From IMG/VR virus record IMGVR_UViG_2531839662_000027, positions 1 through 15,076 of that record: a stretch of DNA of 15,076 nt; one strand, 5' to 3'. Numbering within the stretch: position 1 is the first letter of the stretch; the number at the start of each line of letters is the position of its first letter. The notes below the pieces were generated by a model. It saw only the letters and a program-made list of their open reading frames with translations. It was not told the origin of the DNA and did not search any database. The position numbers and the translations under genes are program-made. The stretch is from a virus. Its lineage: Duplodnaviria > Heunggongvirae > Uroviricota > Caudoviricetes. Of this stretch, positions 967-10,954 are shown piece by piece.

Positions 967-1362
967 TTAGTAGAACATGTGTTTTTCGATAAACGCTCCG
1001 ATCACTTTTTCGTGGATCTCAACTGAGCGTGAGAAGCAGATTGTTTTACGAGCCAACCGCTTAATGCGGGTGCGTAGCGTCAGATTATTACGCTCAATGC
1101 GTTGGGTGAATATTTTGCCGGTCAGATGCTTATTCTTCGGCACCTCCCGGCCATAGCTGCCCCAGTCATCGCTGGTCAGCATGCCGATGTTGAAGGGTGT
1201 AAGCAGTGCCAGTAGCTCCCGGCACGTTTGATCGGTTCGGGGACCAAAAGTGTAGGCCAGTACACCGCCTGTTTTGGTGTTGTACGCGTACCAGAGCCAG
1301 TGTTGCCGGGCTTTACTGCCAACGTAGCTCCATTGCTCATCAAGCTCGCAGATAAGCGCCAC
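967..1362 (-). CDS. insB: IS1 InsB reading frame (normally expressed as InsAB' transposase by -1 frameshift from insA)
   Basis: Translation aligns by eye with IS1 InsB (motifs ELDEQW.YVG, YTQRIER.NL.LR, SFSKSVE.H.KVIG); lies directly downstream of insA in the -1 frame. Confidence 0.8.
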   Translation of the reverse strand: MALICELDEQWSYVGSKARQHWLWYAYNTKTGGVLAYTFGPRTDQTCRELLALLTPFNIGMLTSDDWGSYGREVPKNKHLTGKIFTQRIERNNLTLRTRIKRLARKTICFSRSVEIHEKVIGAFIEKHMFY

Positions 1363-1388
1363 ATCAGCATGGGCAACAGGCGAAGACG

Positions 1389-1661
1389 TTATTCGCTTTG
1401 GCGCGAGTTTTTTAAAGTCCGGATGACGGTGTTAATACCAATTTTCAGTGTCCTGGCGGTATCGCGAACCCCGGCACCATTAAAGGCCATTTCAGTTATC
1501 AGCTCTTTCATACCCGGCTTACGTGCTTGATAAGTATAAGTGAGCTGAAACACACGGTGGCAGTCACGGCAGCGAAATCTGTCACGGCCTTTAGGGTTCT
1601 GACCATGGCGGTAAACCTGAGCTGACTGACAACGGGGACAATGAATATTAACGCTGGCCAT
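1389..1661 (-). CDS. insA: IS1 InsA (zinc-finger transposition regulator)
   Basis: 90-aa protein with a CPxC...CxxC zinc-finger N-terminus and helix-turn-helix C-terminus, colinear with IS1 InsA (MASV.I.CP.C...); divergent from classical IS1. Confidence 0.85.
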   Translation of the reverse strand: MASVNIHCPRCQSAQVYRHGQNPKGRDRFRCRDCHRVFQLTYTYQARKPGMKELITEMAFNGAGVRDTARTLKIGINTVIRTLKNSRQSE

Positions 1662-2817: not shown

Positions 2818-2890
2818 ACCGAAATGGTACTATTGAGTATTTATCCAGTGGGTTACGATGCCATTCCACCCAACTGGTGAGGCATCAAGG

Positions 2891-3151
2891 ATGTACAGCA
2901 AATACGACGATGCGCAGTTTCACTTGAGACTTCCGCATGAACTCCACGCGAAAATTAAACAGCGTGCGAAGATGAATAACAGGTCACTGAACTCAGAGAT
3001 AATTGCAGCGATTGAAGAATCATTGGCTAAACAAAGCTCTGCATCAGTTTACATTGACGATGCAGAGCGTATGGCAGAACAACAATCTGATATGGTTAAG
3101 AAAATTGTCTTTGATACGCTCAAAGAGATATATAAAAAAGACAGCAACTAA
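2891..3151 (+). CDS. mnt: Mnt-like ribbon-helix-helix repressor (Arc/MetJ family)
   Basis: Protein MYSKYDDAQFHLRLPHELHAKIKQRAKMNNRSLNSEIIAAIEESL...DDAERMAEQQSDMVKKIVFDTLKEIYKK resembles P22 Mnt as recalled (..NDAERLADEQSELVKKMVFDTLKDLYKK); P22-like synteny next to the tailspike. Start at 2891 preferred over the track start at 2858 by alignment and a GAGG 9 nt upstream. Confidence 0.7.
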   Translation: MYSKYDDAQFHLRLPHELHAKIKQRAKMNNRSLNSEIIAAIEESLAKQSSASVYIDDAERMAEQQSDMVKKIVFDTLKEIYKKDSN

Positions 3152-3168: not shown

Positions 3169-5014
3169 TTACTTCTGGTTATCATCACTGTTCATCCAGT
3201 ACATGATGCCTAGCCTTGATATGGTTTTCTTATCTGATTCTGGAAGTGAGTTGTAAAACGAGCGCCAAGCAGAAGAGCGTCTTACAGTTGTATCAACGAT
3301 GCTTTCTGGTGCTTGTTTTACTGCCAGCCTTGCTGCTTTCTGGAATTCTGGTGAGCTAATTAGCTTTTCTGCAGATTCAATTGATTCAGCGCCGCCCATC
3401 GCCCTGATTTTGCTGGCGACTTTTGCCCCAATTTCTGACCCAGCAACAGCACCTACTGCACTGAACGGTCCTGACACAGTTGAACCAACCGCAGTGCCAA
3501 TGCGTTGGGCATGGTTAGCAACAAATTCATTTGCCGCAGTGACGCGATTAAACCGTTTTACGAACTCGTTTAGTCTTCCTGTAGTTATCTCGTAAGATTT
3601 TGCGTCTTTGATAGCCTTTGCGACCTTATATACATCGTTCAGACCTGACATAGTCTCTTTTGGTAAATGTCGGGCAAGATTGCGCATCTGCCCGTTTGCT
3701 AACATGTTTTGATACCAGTCAGCAAACCCTGCAGGATTAAAATCAGCGCCACGTTTTCCGTTCGAAAGCATATCCCGAAGACCTGTTCCCAGTAGCTCGG
3801 TTCTTAGCTTCCTGGACGGCGTGTTTTGCATCAATTCACGAAATCCTTTGGCATCGCCTTTCGACATTGCCTGTAGTGCTGTAGTTGCTTTGCGAGAAAC
3901 ATCACCGTTCAGCGTTCTGCCAGTTAGATTAATCATTTGCTCTTCCATGCTTTTTCGCATCTGAACAAGCCTCTGAGCAACTTCAAAATCACGTAATGCA
4001 TTTGTCTCTGACAGCGCCGCCTTTTGATCATCGGCGAGCGAACCGTAAAGCCTCGATAAAGCAGCGCGATCAGCATCTTTATATGGTCCAGAATTCTTAT
4101 GAAGTGCATCACCAACAAGTCGTCGTTGCTTATTGAGATTTGCATAAGTTAATGCGCCGTTCTTGCCTGGATTAACTGCCCGAAAGACTCTCTTTTCAAT
4201 AGGGTCAAGGTTTTTCATCCCGCCAAGATCTTCTGCCACCTGTTTGAGCATTGACCTTGTTGATGGCGCATCAATTTTTGCACCTGCAGGCATCGCCTTT
4301 TCAACATTGCGATAAAGCTGGTCGCTTCGTTTCATCAGCGCAGACATTCTTCCATTGACCGTATCAATAAACTTGTCGCTCATACCAAGAGCATCTTTTG
4401 CACCGGAAACGCGATCAATTATCTCCCCCGCGCCCTGTGCTAGCTGCCTGATTGCTTCATTTTCCTGCACCTGTAGAGCAGAACCCGCACGGGACTTGAT
4501 TGCTTGCTCAACTGCCTTGTATTGCTCGTTCCCGGAAAAGTGTGAAGGGAGTAATGAATCAACATTAAGCCTTTCAGCAGACTCCAGAACTTCAGCCTGA
4601 GGATTGATATCTAGTTCATCAAGCGATGAAGCGAGATTTGGCCTTTTTTGTGCTGCTACTGTGCGAACGACTTCCTCTGGGTTCCTCGTCGCAGGCGTCA
4701 TTGGTACACCTTGTGCTACTCTTGCCTCTGCGGCATGAACCGCAGGATTTGTTGCTGCAGCGGCATCACCGGAGAATGGTGATGTTTCTGTTGGCGCCGT
4801 GGTCGCTCTCTGTGCAGATGTTTTATTGCCACTAATTATATTTGATGCACCACGAACACCACGGGTAACGCCATTTATCAGGCCATGCGTAGCAATGTTA
4901 AGTCCGGCATTAATAGCGGCATTTTCGGCAAAATCACCCCGTTGATTCGCCGCGTCAGCGAGAGAACCAATGACCATGTTTCCAGCTACACCTGCTCCAG
5001 GAACAAGATAACCG
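3169..5014 (-). pseudogene. Ejection (injection) protein, P22 gp16-like: portion downstream of the IS629 insertion
   Basis: 602-codon frame joins in frame to the 6325-6713 fragment when IS629 plus one CCG copy is removed, giving about 743 codons; last gene of the gp7-gp20-gp16-like series before mnt/tailspike. Confidence 0.55.
5012..5014. repeat. Left copy of the 3-bp IS629 target-site duplication (CCG)
   Basis: CCG immediately flanks both IS ends (5012-5014, 6325-6327); a 3-bp duplication is typical of the IS3 family. Confidence 0.55.
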
Positions 5015-5068: not shown

Positions 5069-5395
5069 ATGACTAAAAATACTCGTTTTTCCCCCGAAGT
5101 CCGTCAGCGGGCGATTCGTATGGTTCTGGAAAGTCAGGATGAATATGACTCACAGTGGGCGGCAATTTGTTCCATTGCCCCAAAGATTGGCTGTACGCCG
5201 GAGACTCTGCGTGTCTGGGTTCGCCAGCATGAGCGGGATACCGGGGGCGGTGATGGTGGGCTCACCAGCGCTGAACGTCAGCGTCTGAAAGAGCTGGAAC
5301 GTGAAAATCGTGAACTGCGCCGCAGTAACGATATCCTTCGCCAGGCTTCCGCTTATTTTGCGAAGGCGGAGTTCGACCGCCTCTGGAAAAAATGA
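5069..5395 (+). CDS. IS629 OrfA (helix-turn-helix, leucine-zipper transposase N-terminal part)
   Basis: 108-aa ORF, IS3-family OrfA architecture; sequence recognised as IS629 OrfA. Confidence 0.9.
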
Positions 5396-6282
5396 TGCCA
5401 CTGCTGGATAAGCTGCGTGAGCAGTACGGGGTCGGACCGGTATGTAGCGAACTGCATATTGCCCCGTCAACGTATTACCATTGTCAGCAACAGCGACATC
5501 ATCCGGATAAACGCAGTGCCCGTGCGCAGCACGATGACTGGCTGAAGAAAGAGATACAGCGCGTATACGATGAAAATCACCAGGTATACGGTGTGCGTAA
5601 AGTCTGGCGTCAGTTGTTACGGGAAGGTATCAGAGTGGCCAGATGCACTGTGGCACGTCTCATGGCAGTTATGGGACTTGCCGGTGTTCTCCGGGGTAAA
5701 AAGGTCCGCACTACCGTCAGCCGGAAAGCCGTTGCCGCAGGCGACCGCGTAAACCGTCAGTTCGTGGCAGAACGACCTGACCAGCTGTGGGTGGCTGATT
5801 TTACTTACGTCAGCACATGGCAGGGCTTCGTCTATGTGGCGTTTATCATTGATGTGTTTGCCGGATACATCGTGGGGTGGCGGGTCTCATCGTCTATGGA
5901 AACGACATTCGTGCTGGATGCGCTGGAGCAGGCGTTGTGGGCCCGTCGTCCGTCTGGCACCATCCATCACAGCGATAAAGGCTCTCAGTATGTGTCACTG
6001 GCCTATACGGAGCGACTAAAAGAAGCCGGATTACTGGCATCAACAGGGAGTACAGGCGACTCGTATGACAACGCGATGGCTGAGAGCATCAATGGTCTTT
6101 ACAAAGCGGAGGTAATACACCGTAAGAGCTGGAAAAACCGTGCAGAAGTGGAACTGGCCACACTAACGTGGGTGGACTGGTATAACAATCGACGATTGCT
6201 GGGAAGGCTGGGCCATACTCCTCCGGCAGAAGCAGAAAAAGCTTATTATGCTTCCATCGGAAACGATGATCTGGCAGCCTGA
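5392..6282 (+). CDS. IS629 OrfB (DDE catalytic domain; expressed as OrfAB by -1 frameshift)
   Basis: 296-aa ORF overlapping orfA by ATGA; integrase-like DDE region (..[16 protein letters not shown]..). Confidence 0.9.
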
Positions 6283-6324
6283 GTTCACAGATAAAACACT
6301 CTCCAGGAAACCCGGGGCGGTTCA

Positions 6325-6327
6325 CCG
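6325..6327. repeat. Right copy of the 3-bp IS629 target-site duplication (CCG)
   Basis: See 5012-5014. Confidence 0.55.
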
Positions 6328-6713
6328 CCTATTGACTCTCCAGCTTGCGCGTAGGGGTCTGTCGGTCTGTCTACTGGACGATAAACATCATCCAATACTT
6401 TTGGCCCCCCAAGCCCCTGACTGATTGCATTAATCAGACTTGCGCCACCCTGCAATACGTCAAATGGTATGTTTACCAGACCACGACCAGCCTGTTCTGC
6501 AATTTGCCCTGCACTTTGACCACCAGTGAGCCAATCGCCAGCTTGTTGCATCAATGATGGTTCTTCCCGTGTTGGTGCATTATTGGCCTGATTAACTGTT
6601 TGTTGCTGAACAGCCTGACCAGCAAAATACTCATCAATGGCGGTGCCAATATCTTCGGTGCTCGTACCATCAGGGAAGGTAAATGTCTTACCGTTTGCAG
6701 TTACTTTCATCAT
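6325..6713 (-). pseudogene. Ejection protein gp16-like: N-terminal portion upstream of the IS629 insertion
   Basis: Start ATG at 6713-6711 overlaps the stop of the upstream gene (ATGA coupling); native coding runs to 6325, and the last 13 codons of the track ORF (6285-6323) are read from the IS629 end. Confidence 0.55.
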
Positions 6714-8125: not shown

Positions 8126-8504
8126 TTAAAACAACGAGCCAAGCAATCCGATACCAGCACCAATGCCAGCGCCCCAAGGTGTTGATGTTCCCAAAAGGCT
8201 GGCAAGACCTGCACCGGCAATCGCACCAGACGTTCCGCCACTAATTGCTGTCTGAAGACTTGATGGTTTGTTGGCATTAGCAGCGGCAAGAGCTGCGCTT
8301 TGCTGTGCAATGCTGCTCATGTTGTTGGCGTACGTCTGCCCGGCGTTTGCCTGACCTTGCAGAGCACCAAGCCCAACGTTTGCCAGATTGTTGTAATTGC
8401 TCATCTGGTTTGATAACCAAGACTGACCGAGAGTCGGCGCGATCGTAGCCAGTTGATTGCTTGTGGCTGTCGAACCAAGTCCTCCCGTAACCGCGAGGCA
8501 TCGA
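8126..8504 (-). pseudogene. 3' fragment of a gp7-like ejection protein gene, 5'-truncated at the deletion junction
   Basis: The open frame runs into cro-derived DNA in a frame different from cro; the first 17 codons of track ORF 8126..8554 are cro DNA read out of frame, so no native start or RBS remains. C-terminus is Gly/Ala-rich and hydrophobic. Confidence 0.45.
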
Positions 8505-8582
8505 CTATACGCCGAGATCTTTAGCTGTCTTGGTTTGACCAAAGCGCATTGCATAATCTTTCAGAGTTATGCGTTGTTCCAT
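8505..8582 (-). pseudogene. cro: cro, truncated after codon 25 by a deletion junction
   Basis: Minus strand reads CATGTACTAAGGAGGTTGTATGGAACAACGCATAAC...AAAGATCTCGGCGTATAG: lambda cro RBS and first 25 codons (MEQRITLKDYAMRFGQTKTAKDLGV), then a stop where lambda has TAT CAA AGC; sequence 3' of 8505 is unrelated to cro. Confidence 0.8.
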
Positions 8583-8606
8583 ACAACCTCCTTAGTACAT
8601 GCAATT

Positions 8607-8676
8607 ATTATCACCGCTAGAGGTAAAATAGTCAACACGCACGGTGTTAGATATTTATCCCTTGCGGTGATAGATT
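8607..8676. promoter_or_regulatory. Lambda-type right operator: oR1 (8609-8625), oR2 (8633-8649), oR3 (8656-8672), with pR (minus strand) and pRM (plus strand)
   Basis: 17-bp operators TATCACCGCTAGAGGTA, CAACACGCACGGTGTTA and TATCCCTTGCGGTGATA match lambda oR1/oR2/oR3 with one change in oR1; pRM-like TAGATA (8648-8653) and TAGATT (8671-8676) precede a leaderless cI ATG at 8683; pR -35/-10 read on the minus strand at 8635-8630 and 8612-8607. Confidence 0.85.
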
Positions 8677-8679
8677 TAA

Positions 8680-9396
<717 letters not shown>

Positions 9397-9403
9397 CACG
9401 TAA

Positions 9404-9841
9404 ATGATTAAAGAACGTATTTCTTATATCATTCCGATTGCGATGGATGAAGGCAACCCCGTAACTCCAGTTCTTATCTATGAAATGGATAAAGACTCCC
9501 ATGAAGTGGATCTGTCATTTGGCGCTTTTTTTATCGGCCTTAAGGCTACAAAAAAATATTCCATAGGCATTGAGGTTTTCAATGCTCAAGAAATACCGAT
9601 ACCAATTGACACAAAACTGTACTCCAACCATAAGTTTTTTACGGTAGCAGAAGCCAACGATGGAGAAACCATCGTATCAACTTCTATGAGAATTAACTTC
9701 CCAAGGGTGAAAATTATCAAGCCTGGGATATTCGAAGTTAGAGCATCACTGGTTAATCCTGAGAAAGGCGAAGTAATTGATGTAAAAAGTTCGTTTTTTG
9801 ACGTGAAGATAACAGGATCAGTTCGCGATGAGTTTAGATAA
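9404..9841 (+). CDS. Hypothetical 145-aa protein in the rex position (first gene of the cI-linked module)
   Basis: ATG 7 nt after the cI stop, no terminator between; no transmembrane segment evident; AT-rich; no similarity to RexA that I can recognise. Confidence 0.6.
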   Translation: MIKERISYIIPIAMDEGNPVTPVLIYEMDKDSHEVDLSFGAFFIGLKATKKYSIGIEVFNAQEIPIPIDTKLYSNHKFFTVAEANDGETIVSTSMRINFPRVKIIKPGIFEVRASLVNPEKGEVIDVKSSFFDVKITGSVRDEFR

Positions 9842-10199
9842 CAAGGTTGCTCAGCTTCGTCCAAATCAAAACATATCTCGCCCAATTGGACACTATTCCA
9901 CTGATGATGCATACTCACGGCATGGTGGAGGAAACGGCGGAGGTAACATGCTTGAGGCTAGAGTTGCAAAGCTAGAGTCTGATGTTGAATACATCAAGCG
10001 CGATCTCGCTGAGGTAAAGTCAGATATAAAATCTGTTGATTCTCGTCTGTCAGGTATTGAGACAAGCATTAGCTCAGCAAAAACCACCATTAAGGCATCT
10101 GCGGTCGTTGTCAGTTTCGTGTTCGCATTTTGCGCCTACATTTTTGGAAGTTATGTTTCCAAAATCCTTGATGCCTTAAACGGACTCGTTCTTAAGTAA
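9828..10199 (+). CDS. Hypothetical small membrane protein (123 aa, or 80 aa from the internal start at 9958): Gly-rich linker, coiled coil, C-terminal hydrophobic segment
   Basis: Overlaps the previous ORF by 14 nt; heptad-like LEARVAKLESDVEYIKRDLAEVKSDIKSVDSRL; hydrophobic AVVVSFVFAFCAYIFGSYV; internal ATG at 9958 is preceded by GGAGGTAAC; a strong terminator follows. Confidence 0.6.
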   Translation: MSLDNKVAQLRPNQNISRPIGHYSTDDAYSRHGGGNGGGNMLEARVAKLESDVEYIKRDLAEVKSDIKSVDSRLSGIETSISSAKTTIKASAVVVSFVFAFCAYIFGSYVSKILDALNGLVLK

Positions 10200-10206
10200 C
10201 ACACAA

Positions 10207-10233
10207 CCCGGCCTCAGTGCCGGGTTTTCTTTG
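10207..10233 (+). terminator. Rho-independent terminator ending the cI operon (t-imm equivalent)
   Basis: Perfect 6-bp GC stem CCCGGC/GCCGGG with 6-nt loop followed by TTTTCTTTG, directly after the second rex-slot ORF. Confidence 0.7.
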
Positions 10234-10383
10234 CCTCTCGATCCCCCTTCCCAACAACACATAACCATTTGTATTTATTGGAAAACTAATAGATACAACT
10301 TGCTAAACAGTGCAATTCTGATCCCTCACCTACCTAACAATTCACCCCTGCAAAAAATAAATCCATATAAAAAACATACAGAT

Positions 10384-10446
10384 AACCATCTGCGGTGATA
10401 AATTATCTCTGGCGGTGTTGACACAAATACCACTAGCGGTGATACT
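10384..10446 (+). promoter_or_regulatory. Lambda-type left operator and pL: oL3 (10384-10400), oL2 (10404-10420), oL1 (10428-10444); pL -35 TTGACA (10418-10423), -10 GATACT (10441-10446)
   Basis: AACCATCTGCGGTGATA, TATCTCTGGCGGTGTTG and TACCACTAGCGGTGATA match lambda oL3/oL2/oL1 as recalled; 17-bp spacer between -35 and -10; oriented toward N. Confidence 0.85.
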
Positions 10447-10491
10447 AAACACATCAGCAGGAAGCTGGAAGCCAAACGGAACAGATTGGCA

Positions 10492-10526
10492 TGCTCTTTA
10501 ACTTCGATGGGGCGCTGACAAAGCGC
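10492..10526 (+). promoter_or_regulatory. nutL site: boxA (TGCTCTTTAAC, 10492-10502) and boxB hairpin (GCGCT-GACAA-AGCGC, 10512-10526), P22 type
   Basis: boxA-like motif followed 9 nt later by a 5-bp stem/5-nt loop hairpin whose sequence matches the P22 boxB as I recall it; located between pL and the N-like gene. Confidence 0.7.
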
Positions 10527-10645
10527 AAACAGATACCAAACGAGATGGGTTTGGCGGTGATGTGAATTGCAGCAGTAACGACAGCAACCAGAAGATCAGC
10601 ATCTGGCGCATCACCACCAAAGCTATTTCACATGAGGAAAACATC

Positions 10646-10954
10646 ATGACGGTAATCGTGTACGGAAAATCAACATTTGCAGGAAATGCCAAGACTCGCC
10701 GTCATGAGCGGCGCAGAAAGCTGGCCATCGAGCGTGATTCCATCTGCAACATCATCGATTCGATCTTCGGCGCAGACAGTGAGGAGCCTGTTCAGGAAGC
10801 CCCGAGAAAACGTTTAAGCCTTTCTGAAAAAGCAATATCACTCGGAATCCTTCGCTGCAAGAAGGCAGATGAATGCAGTGGAAGTATTTGCCTGCCAAAC
10901 GTAGCCATTTACGCGGCAGGCTACCGGAAATCAAAACAACTGACGGCGAGGTAA
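10646..10954 (+). CDS. N: N-family transcription antiterminator, P22 gene 24 type
   Basis: Arginine-rich motif GNAKTRRHERRRKLAIERD near the N-terminus matches the P22 N RNA-binding peptide as recalled; ATG at 10646 preceded by GAGGA; first gene after pL/nutL. The track ORF from 10562 is an upstream in-frame extension, judged not used. Confidence 0.8.
   Translation: MTVIVYGKSTFAGNAKTRRHERRRKLAIERDSICNIIDSIFGADSEEPVQEAPRKRLSLSEKAISLGILRCKKADECSGSICLPNVAIYAAGYRKSKQLTAR

What the first reader, a model, noticed from the sequence alone, without database searches (positions are those of the whole stretch)
9404..10233. Uncharacterised two-gene module in the rexA-rexB slot, co-transcribed with cI: candidate lysogen-expressed phage-exclusion system
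Seen in sequence: the immunity region (oR, cI, oL, pL) is almost lambda-like, but between the cI stop (9396) and the t-imm-like terminator (10207-10233) lie two small overlapping ORFs instead of rexA/rexB. The first (145 aa) starts 7 nt after cI and looks soluble. The second (123 aa) has a Gly-rich linker, a heptad-repeat coiled coil and a C-terminal hydrophobic helix. The segment is visibly more AT-rich than cI (not computed). Established knowledge: lambda RexA/RexB occupy this position, are made from the cI transcript in lysogens and cause abortive infection through a membrane effector. Inference: a cytoplasmic partner plus a small coiled-coil membrane protein here is a plausible sensor/effector exclusion system with a new architecture. 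I could not match either protein to a family from memory.
Basis: partly seen in the sequence, partly recalled or inferred. Interest (0 to 1): 0.85.

Follow-up and report, generated by a model that had tools for sequence, protein, structure and literature searches.

The report
Unknown two-gene cassette replacing rexAB
In a decayed lambda-immunity prophage of E. coli, the slot that holds the rexA-rexB phage-exclusion genes in lambda is filled by a conserved, uncharacterised gene pair (a small cytoplasmic beta-sandwich protein and a tail-anchored coiled-coil membrane protein), which is a good but untested candidate for a prophage-encoded defence system.

Summary
ORF-A (9404-9841, 145 aa) and ORF-B (9828-10199, 123 aa) are real genes under purifying selection. 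They lie between the stop codon of a lambda-type cI and a t-imm terminator, and they replace lambda's rexA-rexB exactly. A is a confident beta-sandwich, distantly related to Pfam DUF6941. B has a disordered N-terminal peptide, a GGGNGGG linker, seven heptads and one C-terminal transmembrane helix. It resembles XhlA in layout but scores below Pfam's threshold.

Across about 90 related loci the pair travels as a translationally coupled cassette, almost always directly downstream of a prophage repressor of varied type. Partner genes fall into at least three unrelated classes. B's N-terminal peptide always changes with the partner, while its coiled-coil and membrane end is swapped independently. 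A homologue of A, again paired with a tail-anchored coiled-coil protein, sits in the lysogeny module of a Firmicutes phage.

The same slot elsewhere holds RexAB, BstA, HicAB and PIN or NYN genes. A lysogen-expressed exclusion system with a sensor and a membrane effector is therefore the best reading. It rests on position and architecture only; nothing here tests function. The gene pair and its rex-like position were noted for phage epsilon34 in 2008. Interest is moderate to high.

The parts
8609..8676 (+). oR1 (8609-8625), oR2 (8633-8649), oR3 (8656-8672) and pRM (-35 at 8648-8653, -10 at 8671-8676). pR is on the opposite strand (8635-8607).
   Evidence: String matches to the lambda operators: oR2 and oR3 are identical and oR1 has one mismatch. 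The block is 92% identical to lambda 38117-37231. Feature positions were transferred from the HK244 annotation.
8683..9396 (+). cI repressor of lambda immunity type, 237 aa; first gene of the operon
   Evidence: Pfam HTH_3 plus Peptidase_S24. 92% nucleotide identity to lambda cI.
9393..10204 (+). The inserted cassette: the 812 bp with no similarity to lambda, which replace lambda 37230-35827 (the cI-rexA spacer, rexA and rexB)
   Evidence: blastn of the window against lambda: homology covers 8506-9392 and 10205-10465 only.
9404..9841 (+). ORF-A, 145 aa: acidic cytoplasmic beta-sandwich protein; proposed specificity or sensor subunit
   Evidence: phrog_5893 at E 3e-64. AlphaFold2 pLDDT 87, eight strands. 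Generic Ig-like or CBM-like fold matches. No transmembrane segment, pI 5.4. dN/dS 0.115. Remote DUF6941 link.
9828..10199 (+). ORF-B, 123 aa: tail-anchored membrane protein. Residues 1-32 are a variable peptide, 33-40 the GGGNGGGN linker, 41-90 the coiled coil, 92-110 the transmembrane helix and 111-123 a conserved tail. Proposed effector.
   Evidence: phrog_6136 at E 3e-46. XhlA PF10779 scores 21.6 bits, below the cutoff of 34.7. AlphaFold2: residues 1-39 disordered, 40-122 one helix. Heptad and hydropathy analysis. Family alignment.
9924..9947 (+). DNA encoding the Gly-rich linker of B, which is a recombination joint inside the gene
   Evidence: Homology to epsilon34 (75%) runs 8988-9944 and stops here. 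B relatives share the N-terminus and linker but carry different C-terminal halves.
10205..10233 (+). Intrinsic terminator (t-imm equivalent) that ends the cI-A-B operon
   Evidence: Stem of 8 pairs (6 G-C) followed by a T run. It is the first base of the block 90% identical to lambda 35826-35570. HK244 annotates the equivalent site as Timm.
10385..10446 (+). oL3 (10385-10400), oL2 (10404-10420), oL1 (10428-10444) and pL (10418-10446); downstream boundary of the slot
   Evidence: Promoter scan gives TTGACA-17-GATACT, 10 of 12 matches. Operator strings located. Lambda homology.

Best explanation
A and B form an autonomous, translationally coupled two-gene cassette. It is carried as cargo in the repressor operon and made in lysogens from pRM, and from pRE during establishment.

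B is inserted tail-first into the inner membrane and oligomerises through its coiled coil. Its N-terminal peptide of about 35 residues hangs on a flexible GGGNGGG tether in the cytoplasm, where it docks the cognate partner, A.

The proposed function is exclusion of other phages, of the abortive-infection type. A, or in other cassettes a zinc-ribbon-like protein or a protein of about 90 residues, is the specificity subunit that recognises a component of an infecting phage. That event releases or re-arranges B. B's conserved coiled-coil and transmembrane end, with small-xxx-small packing motifs, then perturbs or permeabilises the membrane as holin-like and XhlA-like proteins do. The infection is stopped.

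What is shown: gene reality, operon anatomy, folds and topology, the cassette's portability, its linkage to repressors, and the strict co-inheritance of partner and B N-terminus.

What is inferred: expression in lysogens, physical docking of A on B, and above all the anti-phage function and the membrane mechanism.
For: 1. Position. The cassette replaces rexAB exactly, between the cI stop and t-imm. pRM is intact and there is no internal terminator.

2. The same slot in other lambda-immunity phages and E. coli genomes holds RexAB, HicAB, a BstA homologue (PADLOC BstA E 2.5e-20, phrog_6287) and PIN, NYN and ParA genes. The interval is described in the literature as a mosaic hotspot for accessory loci (PMC8585504, PMC7067206).

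3. In the roughly 90 loci that carry B relatives, the gene upstream of the pair is nearly always a repressor, of several unrelated types. Of 37 distinct upstream proteins, 25 match HTH_3, 15 Peptidase_S24, 11 Phage_CI_repr and 4 Arc/Mnt.

4. The cassette is portable. There are 13 locus pairs with near-identical partners next to unrelated repressors, and 9 with the reverse pattern. One variant sits as a pair inside a myovirus baseplate gene cluster.

5. The design is modular, as in many defence systems. There are at least three unrelated partner classes and several alternative transmembrane ends on B. Among 21 locus pairs whose partners are more than 50% identical, none has a diverged B N-terminus, 11 have unrelated B C-termini and 14 have unrelated repressors.

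6. A and B start and stop codons overlap or abut in every annotated case, with overlaps of 4-14 nt or a 1-nt gap.

7. A homologue of A occurs in Anoxybacillus phage A403 (hhalign probability 96.7%). It is again followed, with a 1-nt overlap, by a tail-anchored coiled-coil protein, in the lysogeny module.

8. Distribution is patchy: 16 of 5426 complete E. coli genomes hold at least 70% of the region (14 hold at least 80%), and 8 of 50,697 phage records match B.

9. cI, A and B remain intact in a prophage that has lost cro through gene 7 and carries two IS insertions.
Against: There is no functional evidence of any kind.
- No hit to any PADLOC model was found for A or for any partner class. No paper was found on either protein family.
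- Evidence from position is weak. The slot also holds genes of unknown role, and lambda's own lysogen-expressed genes include non-defence cargo (lom, bor).
- The co-inheritance of partner and B N-terminus could partly reflect physical adjacency on the DNA. Partner identity also correlates weakly with repressor identity (rho 0.19).
- B's match to XhlA is below threshold and may only reflect coiled-coil composition.
- A's fold is generic and gives no hint of a ligand.
Confidence: 0.45

Rival explanations
1. Toxin-antitoxin or addiction module. B is a small membrane toxin and A, or another partner class, is its cognate neutraliser. The pair stabilises the prophage or the immunity region in the chromosome, with or without a role in phage defence.
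For: Tight translational coupling. Strict partner to N-terminal-peptide specificity. HicAB occupies the same slot in mEp234 and HK106. cI-A-B is retained intact in a heavily decayed prophage.
Against: Neither protein matches any toxin-antitoxin family in Pfam, NCBIfam or PADLOC. The gene order and sizes fit other explanations equally well. Retention could simply reflect the recent origin of the deletion. This reading overlaps with the best explanation, because many toxin-antitoxin systems act as abortive-infection systems.
Confidence: 0.15
2. Superinfection exclusion at the entry step. The membrane-tethered complex sits at the cytoplasmic face of the inner membrane and blocks genome delivery by incoming phages, as P22 SieA or HK97 gp15 do, without killing the cell.
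For: Inner-membrane location with a cytoplasmic binding module. Presence in the lysogenic operon. Carriage by P22-like and lambda-like phages, whose entry needs inner-membrane steps.
Against: No similarity to SieA, SieB, gp15, Cor, Imm or Sim families; all PHROG hits are to families of unknown function. The strongly conserved coiled coil, transmembrane helix and tail paired with interchangeable partners fit an effector better than a passive plug. Known entry blockers are mostly single proteins.
Confidence: 0.15
3. A function that is not defence: lysogenic conversion of host physiology, or modulation of the prophage's own lysis-lysogeny switch or lysis timing. Precedents are the effect of RexA on the lambda switch and the role of XhlA in PBSX lysis.
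For: XhlA-like layout of B. In Bacillus PBSX and SPbeta, beta-sandwich proteins (XepA, YomS) belong to the same lytic cassettes as the XhlA/BhlA holin-like proteins (PMC6834076). RexA has a regulatory role independent of RexB (abstract of PMC11077077, listed). Genes in this operon are also transcribed from pRE during establishment (established lambda biology).
Against: The cassette is found with many unrelated repressors and even outside immunity regions. This argues against a role tied to one particular switch. It lies in the lysogeny operon, not in a lysis cassette, in both Enterobacterales and Anoxybacillus phages. XepA and YomS were not among the best fold matches of A.
Confidence: 0.2
4. 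The ORFs are not functional genes: either chance reading frames or decaying remnants within a defective prophage.
For: The surrounding prophage is defective, with a deletion from cro to gene 7 and IS1 and IS3-family insertions.
Against: dN/dS is 0.115 at dS 1.4. There are full-length homologues in functional phages (epsilon34, g341c, HK244/HK542) and in intact immunity regions such as that of E2348/69. The fold prediction is confident. The pairing is conserved across phyla.
Confidence: 0.01

Closest known systems
Lambda RexA/RexB abortive-infection system
   Same: Identical genomic slot between the cI stop and t-imm, in the pRM operon. Two genes, one cytoplasmic protein followed by one membrane protein. 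By analogy, a sensor that activates a membrane effector.
   Different: No sequence similarity. RexA is 279 aa and RexB 144 aa by the lambda CDS coordinates. [quoted passage not shown] RexB is reported to be an ion channel (PMC8585504) and, from established knowledge, has four transmembrane helices. Here A is a 145-aa beta-sandwich and B has a single C-terminal transmembrane helix and a long coiled coil. The genes overlap, and no pLIT-like arrangement is evident.
Phage epsilon34 genes 45/44 (also g341c 40/39 and NM-3), and HK244/HK542 orfs 05/04
   Same: True homologues. Epsilon34 gp45 is 73% identical to A, and gp44 shares B's N-terminus and linker. HK244_05 belongs to phrog_5893 at E 2e-50. 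All lie directly downstream of the repressor. The epsilon34 authors noted the likeness to rexA/rexB (PMC2629481).
   Different: The C-terminal halves of the B partners differ. Epsilon34 gp44 has a shorter coiled coil and another transmembrane helix. HK244_04 is a 206-aa protein of phrog_5820. None has been studied functionally.
XhlA of Bacillus prophage PBSX (Pfam PF10779), with XepA and YomS of the same lytic cassettes
   Same: A small protein with a coiled coil and a C-terminal membrane anchor. In PBSX and SPbeta, beta-sandwich proteins (XepA, YomS) belong to the same lytic cassettes as the XhlA/BhlA holin-like proteins (PMC6834076). This parallels the A-B pairing. NCBI names B-family proteins 'hemolysin XhlA'.
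   Different: B scores 21.6 bits against a Pfam cutoff of 34.7. XhlA lies in a late lysis cassette with a holin and an endolysin, whereas B lies in the repressor operon. XepA and YomS are not among A's best fold matches.
BstA (Salmonella prophage BTP1) and other cargos of the cI-to-N hotspot (HicAB, PIN and NYN proteins)
   Same: Same hotspot and the same presumed transcription from the repressor promoter. A BstA homologue occupies this slot next to a lambda-type cI, about 92% identical in DNA, in phage PhiR5_2 (PMC8585504).
   Different: BstA is a single KilA-N protein that acts at phage replication sites. There is no homology to A or B.
Pfam DUF6941 and the pair at 35864-36822 of Anoxybacillus phage A403
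   Same: A's family aligns to the A403 134-aa protein (hhalign probability 96.7%, E 3e-10). That protein passes the DUF6941 threshold with 29.3 bits against 27. It too is followed, with a 1-nt overlap, by a tail-anchored coiled-coil protein in the lysogeny module.
   Different: The window's A does not itself reach DUF6941; only 4 of 26 relatives give sub-threshold hits. The A403 membrane partner shows no sequence similarity to B. DUF6941 has no known function and no literature.

Membership tests
RexA/RexB (lambda exclusion system) | Sequence homology to RexA and RexB | tested here: not met
   Pfam, NCBIfam, PHROG and PADLOC scans of A and B gave no Rex family at E up to 1. There is no DNA similarity to lambda between 9393 and 10204.
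RexA/RexB (lambda exclusion system) | Location between cI and t-imm, in the pRM operon | tested here: met
   The homology breakpoints with lambda fall at the cI stop and at the terminator stem. There is no terminator between cI and 10205.
RexA/RexB (lambda exclusion system) | Polytopic (four-helix) membrane channel protein as the second gene | tested here: not met
   B has a single hydrophobic helix at residues 92-110 and is modelled as one long helix.
RexA/RexB (lambda exclusion system) | Excludes T4 rII and other phages through loss of membrane potential | not testable with these tools
   Needs plating and membrane-potential assays.
XhlA (Pfam PF10779) | Score at or above the Pfam gathering threshold | tested here: not met
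   21.6 bits against a cutoff of 34.7, E 2.4e-4. None of eight other B-type variants reached it. One variant (L065) instead passes CCDC90-like PF07798, with 43.6 bits against 33.5.
XhlA (Pfam PF10779) | Short protein with a coiled coil followed by a C-terminal transmembrane anchor | tested here: met
   Heptad and hydropathy analysis. AlphaFold2 model.
XhlA (Pfam PF10779) | Encoded in a lysis cassette beside a holin and an endolysin | tested here: not met
   B lies in the repressor operon in the window and in about 90 related loci.
PHROG phrog_5893 (A) and phrog_6136 (B), both of unknown function | Full-length significant match to the family profile | tested here: met
   A: E 3.4e-64 over 1-140 of 140. 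B: E 2.9e-46 over 1-120 of 120.
Pfam DUF6941 | Score at or above the gathering threshold (27 bits) | tested here: not met
   The window's A gives no hit at E up to 1. Four of 26 relatives hit below threshold (best E 0.002). The link is indirect, through the A403 protein.
Known anti-phage defence systems (PADLOC-DB 2.0.0) | Match to any model of a known or candidate defence protein | tested here: not met
   A: no hits. B: only weak coiled-coil matches (CorA-like at E 0.005, LmuB). Partner classes: no hits.
XepA/YomS beta-sandwich lysis-cassette proteins | Specific fold similarity to XepA or YomS beyond a generic beta-sandwich | tested here: inconclusive

The most novel reading that the evidence does not exclude
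A and B would be one example of a widespread, previously unrecognised class of modular defence cassettes encoded by prophages. In this class, interchangeable cytoplasmic sensor proteins (DUF6941-like beta-sandwich, zinc-ribbon-like, or a small protein of about 90 residues) are each docked on a matching N-terminal peptide. That peptide is tethered by a Gly-rich linker to an interchangeable, holin-like or XhlA-like, tail-anchored coiled-coil effector that kills or arrests the infected cell through the membrane. The pairing would be ancient, shared by phages of Proteobacteria and Firmicutes, and would link XhlA-type lysis proteins to anti-phage immunity.
Probability: 0.3. Interest if true: 0.8.

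Novelty: new variant of a known kind. Interest (0 to 1): 0.6.

Why it matters
The interval from cI to N in lambdoid prophages is one of the best-known sites of lysogen-expressed accessory genes. RexAB has resisted mechanistic explanation for more than 60 years (PMC8585504).

A second two-gene cassette with a soluble and a membrane component in the same slot would give a simpler and more tractable model. It is built from different and much smaller parts, and natural swaps of its 'sensor' and 'effector' halves already exist. It could show how a cytoplasmic recognition event is passed to a membrane effector.

If the cassette is anti-phage, it adds a new family to the prophage defence repertoire of E. 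coli, Salmonella, Klebsiella, Enterobacter, Yersinia and related genera. That bears on phage therapy and on typing phages. It would also give a function to two PHROG families, a DUF, and proteins now mis-labelled 'hemolysin XhlA'.

If it is not anti-phage, it is still a conserved function of the lysogeny module that nobody has assigned.

Tried and rejected
- Homology of A to any solved structure by sequence gave nothing.
- B against solved structures matched only generic, mostly trimeric, coiled coils such as Lpp, gp26 and sigma-1.
- An exhaustive HMM search with the narrow A profile found only about a dozen small-protein clusters. The few large repeat proteins it also hit were treated as spurious Ig-repeat matches.
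- Literature searches by accession number, by phage name, by XhlA plus defence, by repressor-operon coiled-coil proteins and by DUF6941 found no functional study.
- HepS (PMC13043305) and TerI (bioRxiv 2025.02.27.640495) are unrelated systems.
- The two uncharacterised genes downstream of cI in Salmonella prophage ST64B, which are highly expressed according to PMC7067206, are not relatives of A or B.
- An internal promoter for B, analogous to lambda's pLIT, has no support. The only + strand promoter-like hits inside the cassette region are weak (9 of 12 matches), and the total count is within the shuffle expectation of 7 against 4.4 +/- 1.9.
- A signal peptide or periplasmic location for A was rejected because it has no hydrophobic N-terminus.
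Full report
**Context**

The window is a decayed P22-like prophage at the argW/KplE1 site of E. coli. The 861 bp tested (9380-10240) is 100% identical to E. coli UMNF18, where it lies between intS and torI.

On the minus strand lie several P22-type genes:
- a tailspike split by IS1;
- an Mnt/Arc repressor gene;
- a gp16-like ejection gene split by an IS3-family element;
- gp20;
- the C-terminal part of gp7.

The gp7 fragment is fused to a 75-nt remnant of cro. Everything from cro to the 5' half of gene 7 has therefore been deleted.

On the plus strand the early-left arm is intact. It carries oR/pRM, cI, the two ORFs of the finding, a terminator, oL/pL, an N gene, ral, recT and further genes down to torI/xis.

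**Checking the observation**

All the coordinates are correct:
- cI is 8683-9396.
- ORF-A is 9404-9841, after a 7-nt gap.
- ORF-B is 9828-10199, with a 14-nt overlap on A.
- The only terminator-like site on the plus strand before pL is at 10205-10233.

blastn against lambda shows 92% identity over 8506-9392 and 90% over 10205-10465, with nothing in between. The 812-bp cassette therefore replaces lambda 37230-35827 exactly. That stretch holds the cI-rexA spacer, rexA and rexB. The left joint lies 4 nt before the cI stop and the right joint at the first base of the t-imm stem.

oR2 and oR3 are identical to lambda's and oR1 differs by one base. The pRM and pL hexamers are present.

The composition claim is half right. 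A has 37.9% GC, cI 43.7% and B 43.0%.

The ORFs are genuine genes:
- They give full-length matches to phrog_5893 and phrog_6136.
- Homologues occur in functional phages, namely epsilon34, g341c, NM-3 and HK244/HK542.
- The same pair sits in the intact immunity region of EPEC E2348/69.
- dN/dS against epsilon34 is 0.115 for A and 0.29 for B, at a saturating dS of about 1.4-1.7.

**What the proteins are**

A is modelled with confidence (pLDDT 87, pTM 0.81) as an eight-stranded beta-sandwich. It is acidic (pI 5.4) and has no hydrophobic segment, so it is cytoplasmic.

The closest viral models are two uncharacterised phage proteins of about 140 aa. I traced one of them to Anoxybacillus phage A403:
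- Its 134-aa ORF (35864-36268) matches my broad A profile (42 bits; hhalign probability 96.7%, E 3e-10).
- It passes the Pfam DUF6941 threshold.
- Four of 26 A relatives hit DUF6941 below threshold.

A is thus a remote member of an uncharacterised superfamily.

B has five parts:
- a disordered N-terminal peptide, residues 1-32;
- a strikingly conserved GGGNGGG(N/D) linker;
- the motif MLEARVAKLESDVEYIKRD, which opens about seven heptads in which 13 of 15 a/d positions are hydrophobic;
- one transmembrane helix, residues 92-110, containing the small-residue motifs A92xxxS96xxxA100 and A103xxxG107xxxS111;
- a nearly invariant tail, SKILDALNGLVLK.

With no signal sequence and a C-terminal anchor, B must be a tail-anchored protein whose bulk lies in the cytoplasm. 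This topology is inferred.

B's best Pfam match is XhlA, but at 21.6 bits against a cutoff of 34.7. NCBI nevertheless labels the family 'hemolysin XhlA'. One variant passes CCDC90-like instead. I therefore treat B as XhlA-like in architecture, not as a proven member.

**The family picture**

This is the main new result. I collected about 90 loci that carry B relatives and analysed them with my own profiles.

First, B is almost always preceded by a small gene that abuts or overlaps it. In most loci that gene is A-like. In others it is a protein of about 110-132 aa with CxxC...CxxC motifs, which looks like a zinc ribbon (phrog_4293). In others again it is a protein of about 90 aa (phrog_4231). 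All three classes have unknown function and none hits PADLOC.

Second, the gene upstream of the pair is nearly always a repressor, of varied type. Of 37 distinct upstream proteins, 25 match HTH_3, 15 Peptidase_S24, 11 Phage_CI_repr and 4 Arc/Mnt.

Third, the cassette is portable:
- Near-identical partners sit beside unrelated repressors in 13 locus pairs, and the reverse holds in 9.
- In Photorhabdus, an A-like plus B pair sits inside a myovirus baseplate gene cluster.

Fourth, B itself is a mosaic. At least four unrelated C-terminal membrane ends are joined to the same linker and first heptads. The window-to-epsilon34 homology stops exactly at the linker.

Fifth, the partner and B's N-terminal peptide are never separated:
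- Among 21 locus pairs with partners more than 50% identical, none has a B N-terminus below 40% identity, 11 have unrelated C-termini and 14 have unrelated repressors.
- Among 19 pairs with similar N-termini, none has an unrelated partner.
- A Mantel test gives rho 0.26 (p 0.0005) for partner against N-terminus, and no correlation with the core or the C-terminus.

Adjacency on the DNA could contribute to this pattern. However, the equally adjacent repressor-to-partner junction is broken often. I therefore infer that the partner binds the N-terminal peptide of B.

Sixth, the A403 phage of a Firmicutes host repeats the arrangement. Its DUF6941 protein is followed, with a 1-nt overlap, by a 184-aa coiled-coil protein with a C-terminal transmembrane helix. 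The two genes lie between the repressor/ImmA genes and the integrase gene, on the same strand. That membrane protein shows no sequence similarity to B.

**What it most likely does**

The slot is a documented hotspot for accessory genes that are expressed in lysogens (PMC8585504 and PMC7067206, both citing Degnan et al. 2007). With the same lambda-type cI and t-imm flanks, I found the following cargos:
- rexAB in lambda and SfI;
- hicAB in mEp234 and HK106;
- a BstA homologue in PhiR5_2;
- an A-like protein plus a 206-aa coiled-coil membrane protein in HK244 and HK542;
- PIN, NYN and ParA genes, and genes for hypothetical proteins, in E. coli genomes.

Several features point to a lysogen-expressed exclusion system in which A is the specificity subunit and B the membrane effector. 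These are the slot's other cargos, the patchy distribution, and the 'variable recognition half, conserved effector half' design. I give this reading a confidence of about 0.45, and less for the specific membrane-permeabilisation step.

Nothing here tests function. The rivals remain open:
- an addiction or toxin-antitoxin module;
- a block to phage entry;
- a regulatory or lysis-related role, suggested by the XepA/YomS and XhlA/BhlA lytic cassettes of Bacillus prophages (PMC6834076).

**Comparison with what is known**

The cassette works like RexAB in position and in logic, but it fails the Rex membership tests for homology and for a four-helix channel. It resembles XhlA in layout but fails the score threshold and the lysis-cassette context. 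It matches no PADLOC model.

The pair and its rex-like position were already pointed out for epsilon34 in 2008 (PMC2629481). A related pair is annotated in HK244. The bare observation is therefore not new. The modular family structure, the partner-to-peptide coupling and the link to DUF6941 and Firmicutes phages are, as far as my searches show, undescribed.

**Verdict**

This is a real, conserved and uncharacterised two-gene cassette, and a reasonable candidate for a new variant of a prophage exclusion system. It is directly testable by simple cloning and plating.

Noticed in passing
window 8126-8582: A deletion joins a 75-nt cro remnant (about 8508-8582, minus strand) to the C-terminal part of a P22 gp7-type ejection protein (8126-8554, matching Pfam P22_gp7 positions 110-230 of 230). 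The prophage has therefore lost everything from cro to the 5' half of gene 7, yet oR, pRM and cI remain intact.
   Followed up: partly
window 967-1661: An IS1 element (InsA and the IS1 transposase) splits a P22-type tailspike gene. The head-binding N-terminal part is at 1714-2817 and the C-terminal part at 1-966. UMNF18 has the same tailspike uninterrupted.
   Followed up: partly
window 5069-6282: An IS3-family element (HTH_Tnp_1 plus rve) appears to interrupt the gp16-like ejection protein gene (3169-4977 and 6285-6713). The equivalent gene in UMNF18 is annotated as frameshifted.
   Followed up: partly
window 10466-10954: Homology to lambda stops just after pL, at 10465. The nutL-like boxA/boxB region (about 10490-10530) and the N gene (10646-10954, Pfam N_peptide E 2e-40) are not of lambda type. 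The immunity region is thus a mosaic: lambda cI and operators combined with a different antitermination specificity.
   Followed up: partly
window 2858-3151: An Mnt/Arc-type ribbon-helix-helix repressor gene (an immI remnant) lies between the tailspike and gp16-like genes. No ant gene is evident.
   Followed up: no
L032-L037, L055-L058, L065 (partner genes about 3540-3970); L052, L083-L089 (about 3564-3860): B-family effectors are also paired with two other partner classes. One is CxxC...CxxC zinc-ribbon-like proteins (phrog_4293). The other is proteins of about 90 aa (phrog_4231), which follow small Arc-like (80-85 aa) repressors rather than CI-type ones.
   Followed up: partly
L096/L097 3001-3751 (Photorhabdus): An A-like gene (143 aa) plus a B-type gene (108 aa) are inserted as a pair among myovirus baseplate and tail genes. 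The cassette is therefore not strictly tied to immunity regions.
   Followed up: partly
L100 (Anoxybacillus phage A403, MG969427) 33486-36822: The lysogeny module of this Firmicutes phage holds a coiled-coil protein annotated, apparently wrongly, as 'tape measure'. It also holds a membrane-anchored protein annotated as a DNase/RNase endonuclease. Next come the DUF6941 homologue of A and a tail-anchored coiled-coil protein. All are co-directional with the repressor and integrase genes. This could be a small defence island.
   Followed up: partly
L091 1379-2140 (phage PhiR5_2) and E. coli hits H65, H77, H78, H82: With the same lambda-type cI, the slot holds a BstA homologue in PhiR5_2. In various E. 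coli genomes, including O157:H7, it holds ParA, PIN and NYN-domain genes. A systematic catalogue of this slot would probably yield more candidate defence genes.
   Followed up: partly
window 9924-9947 and B-family alignment A3: The GGGNGGG linker is conserved far more strictly than a flexible spacer needs to be. It coincides with the recombination joint between the halves of B. Whether the conservation is at the protein level or reflects use of the DNA as a recombination site is unexplained.
   Followed up: no
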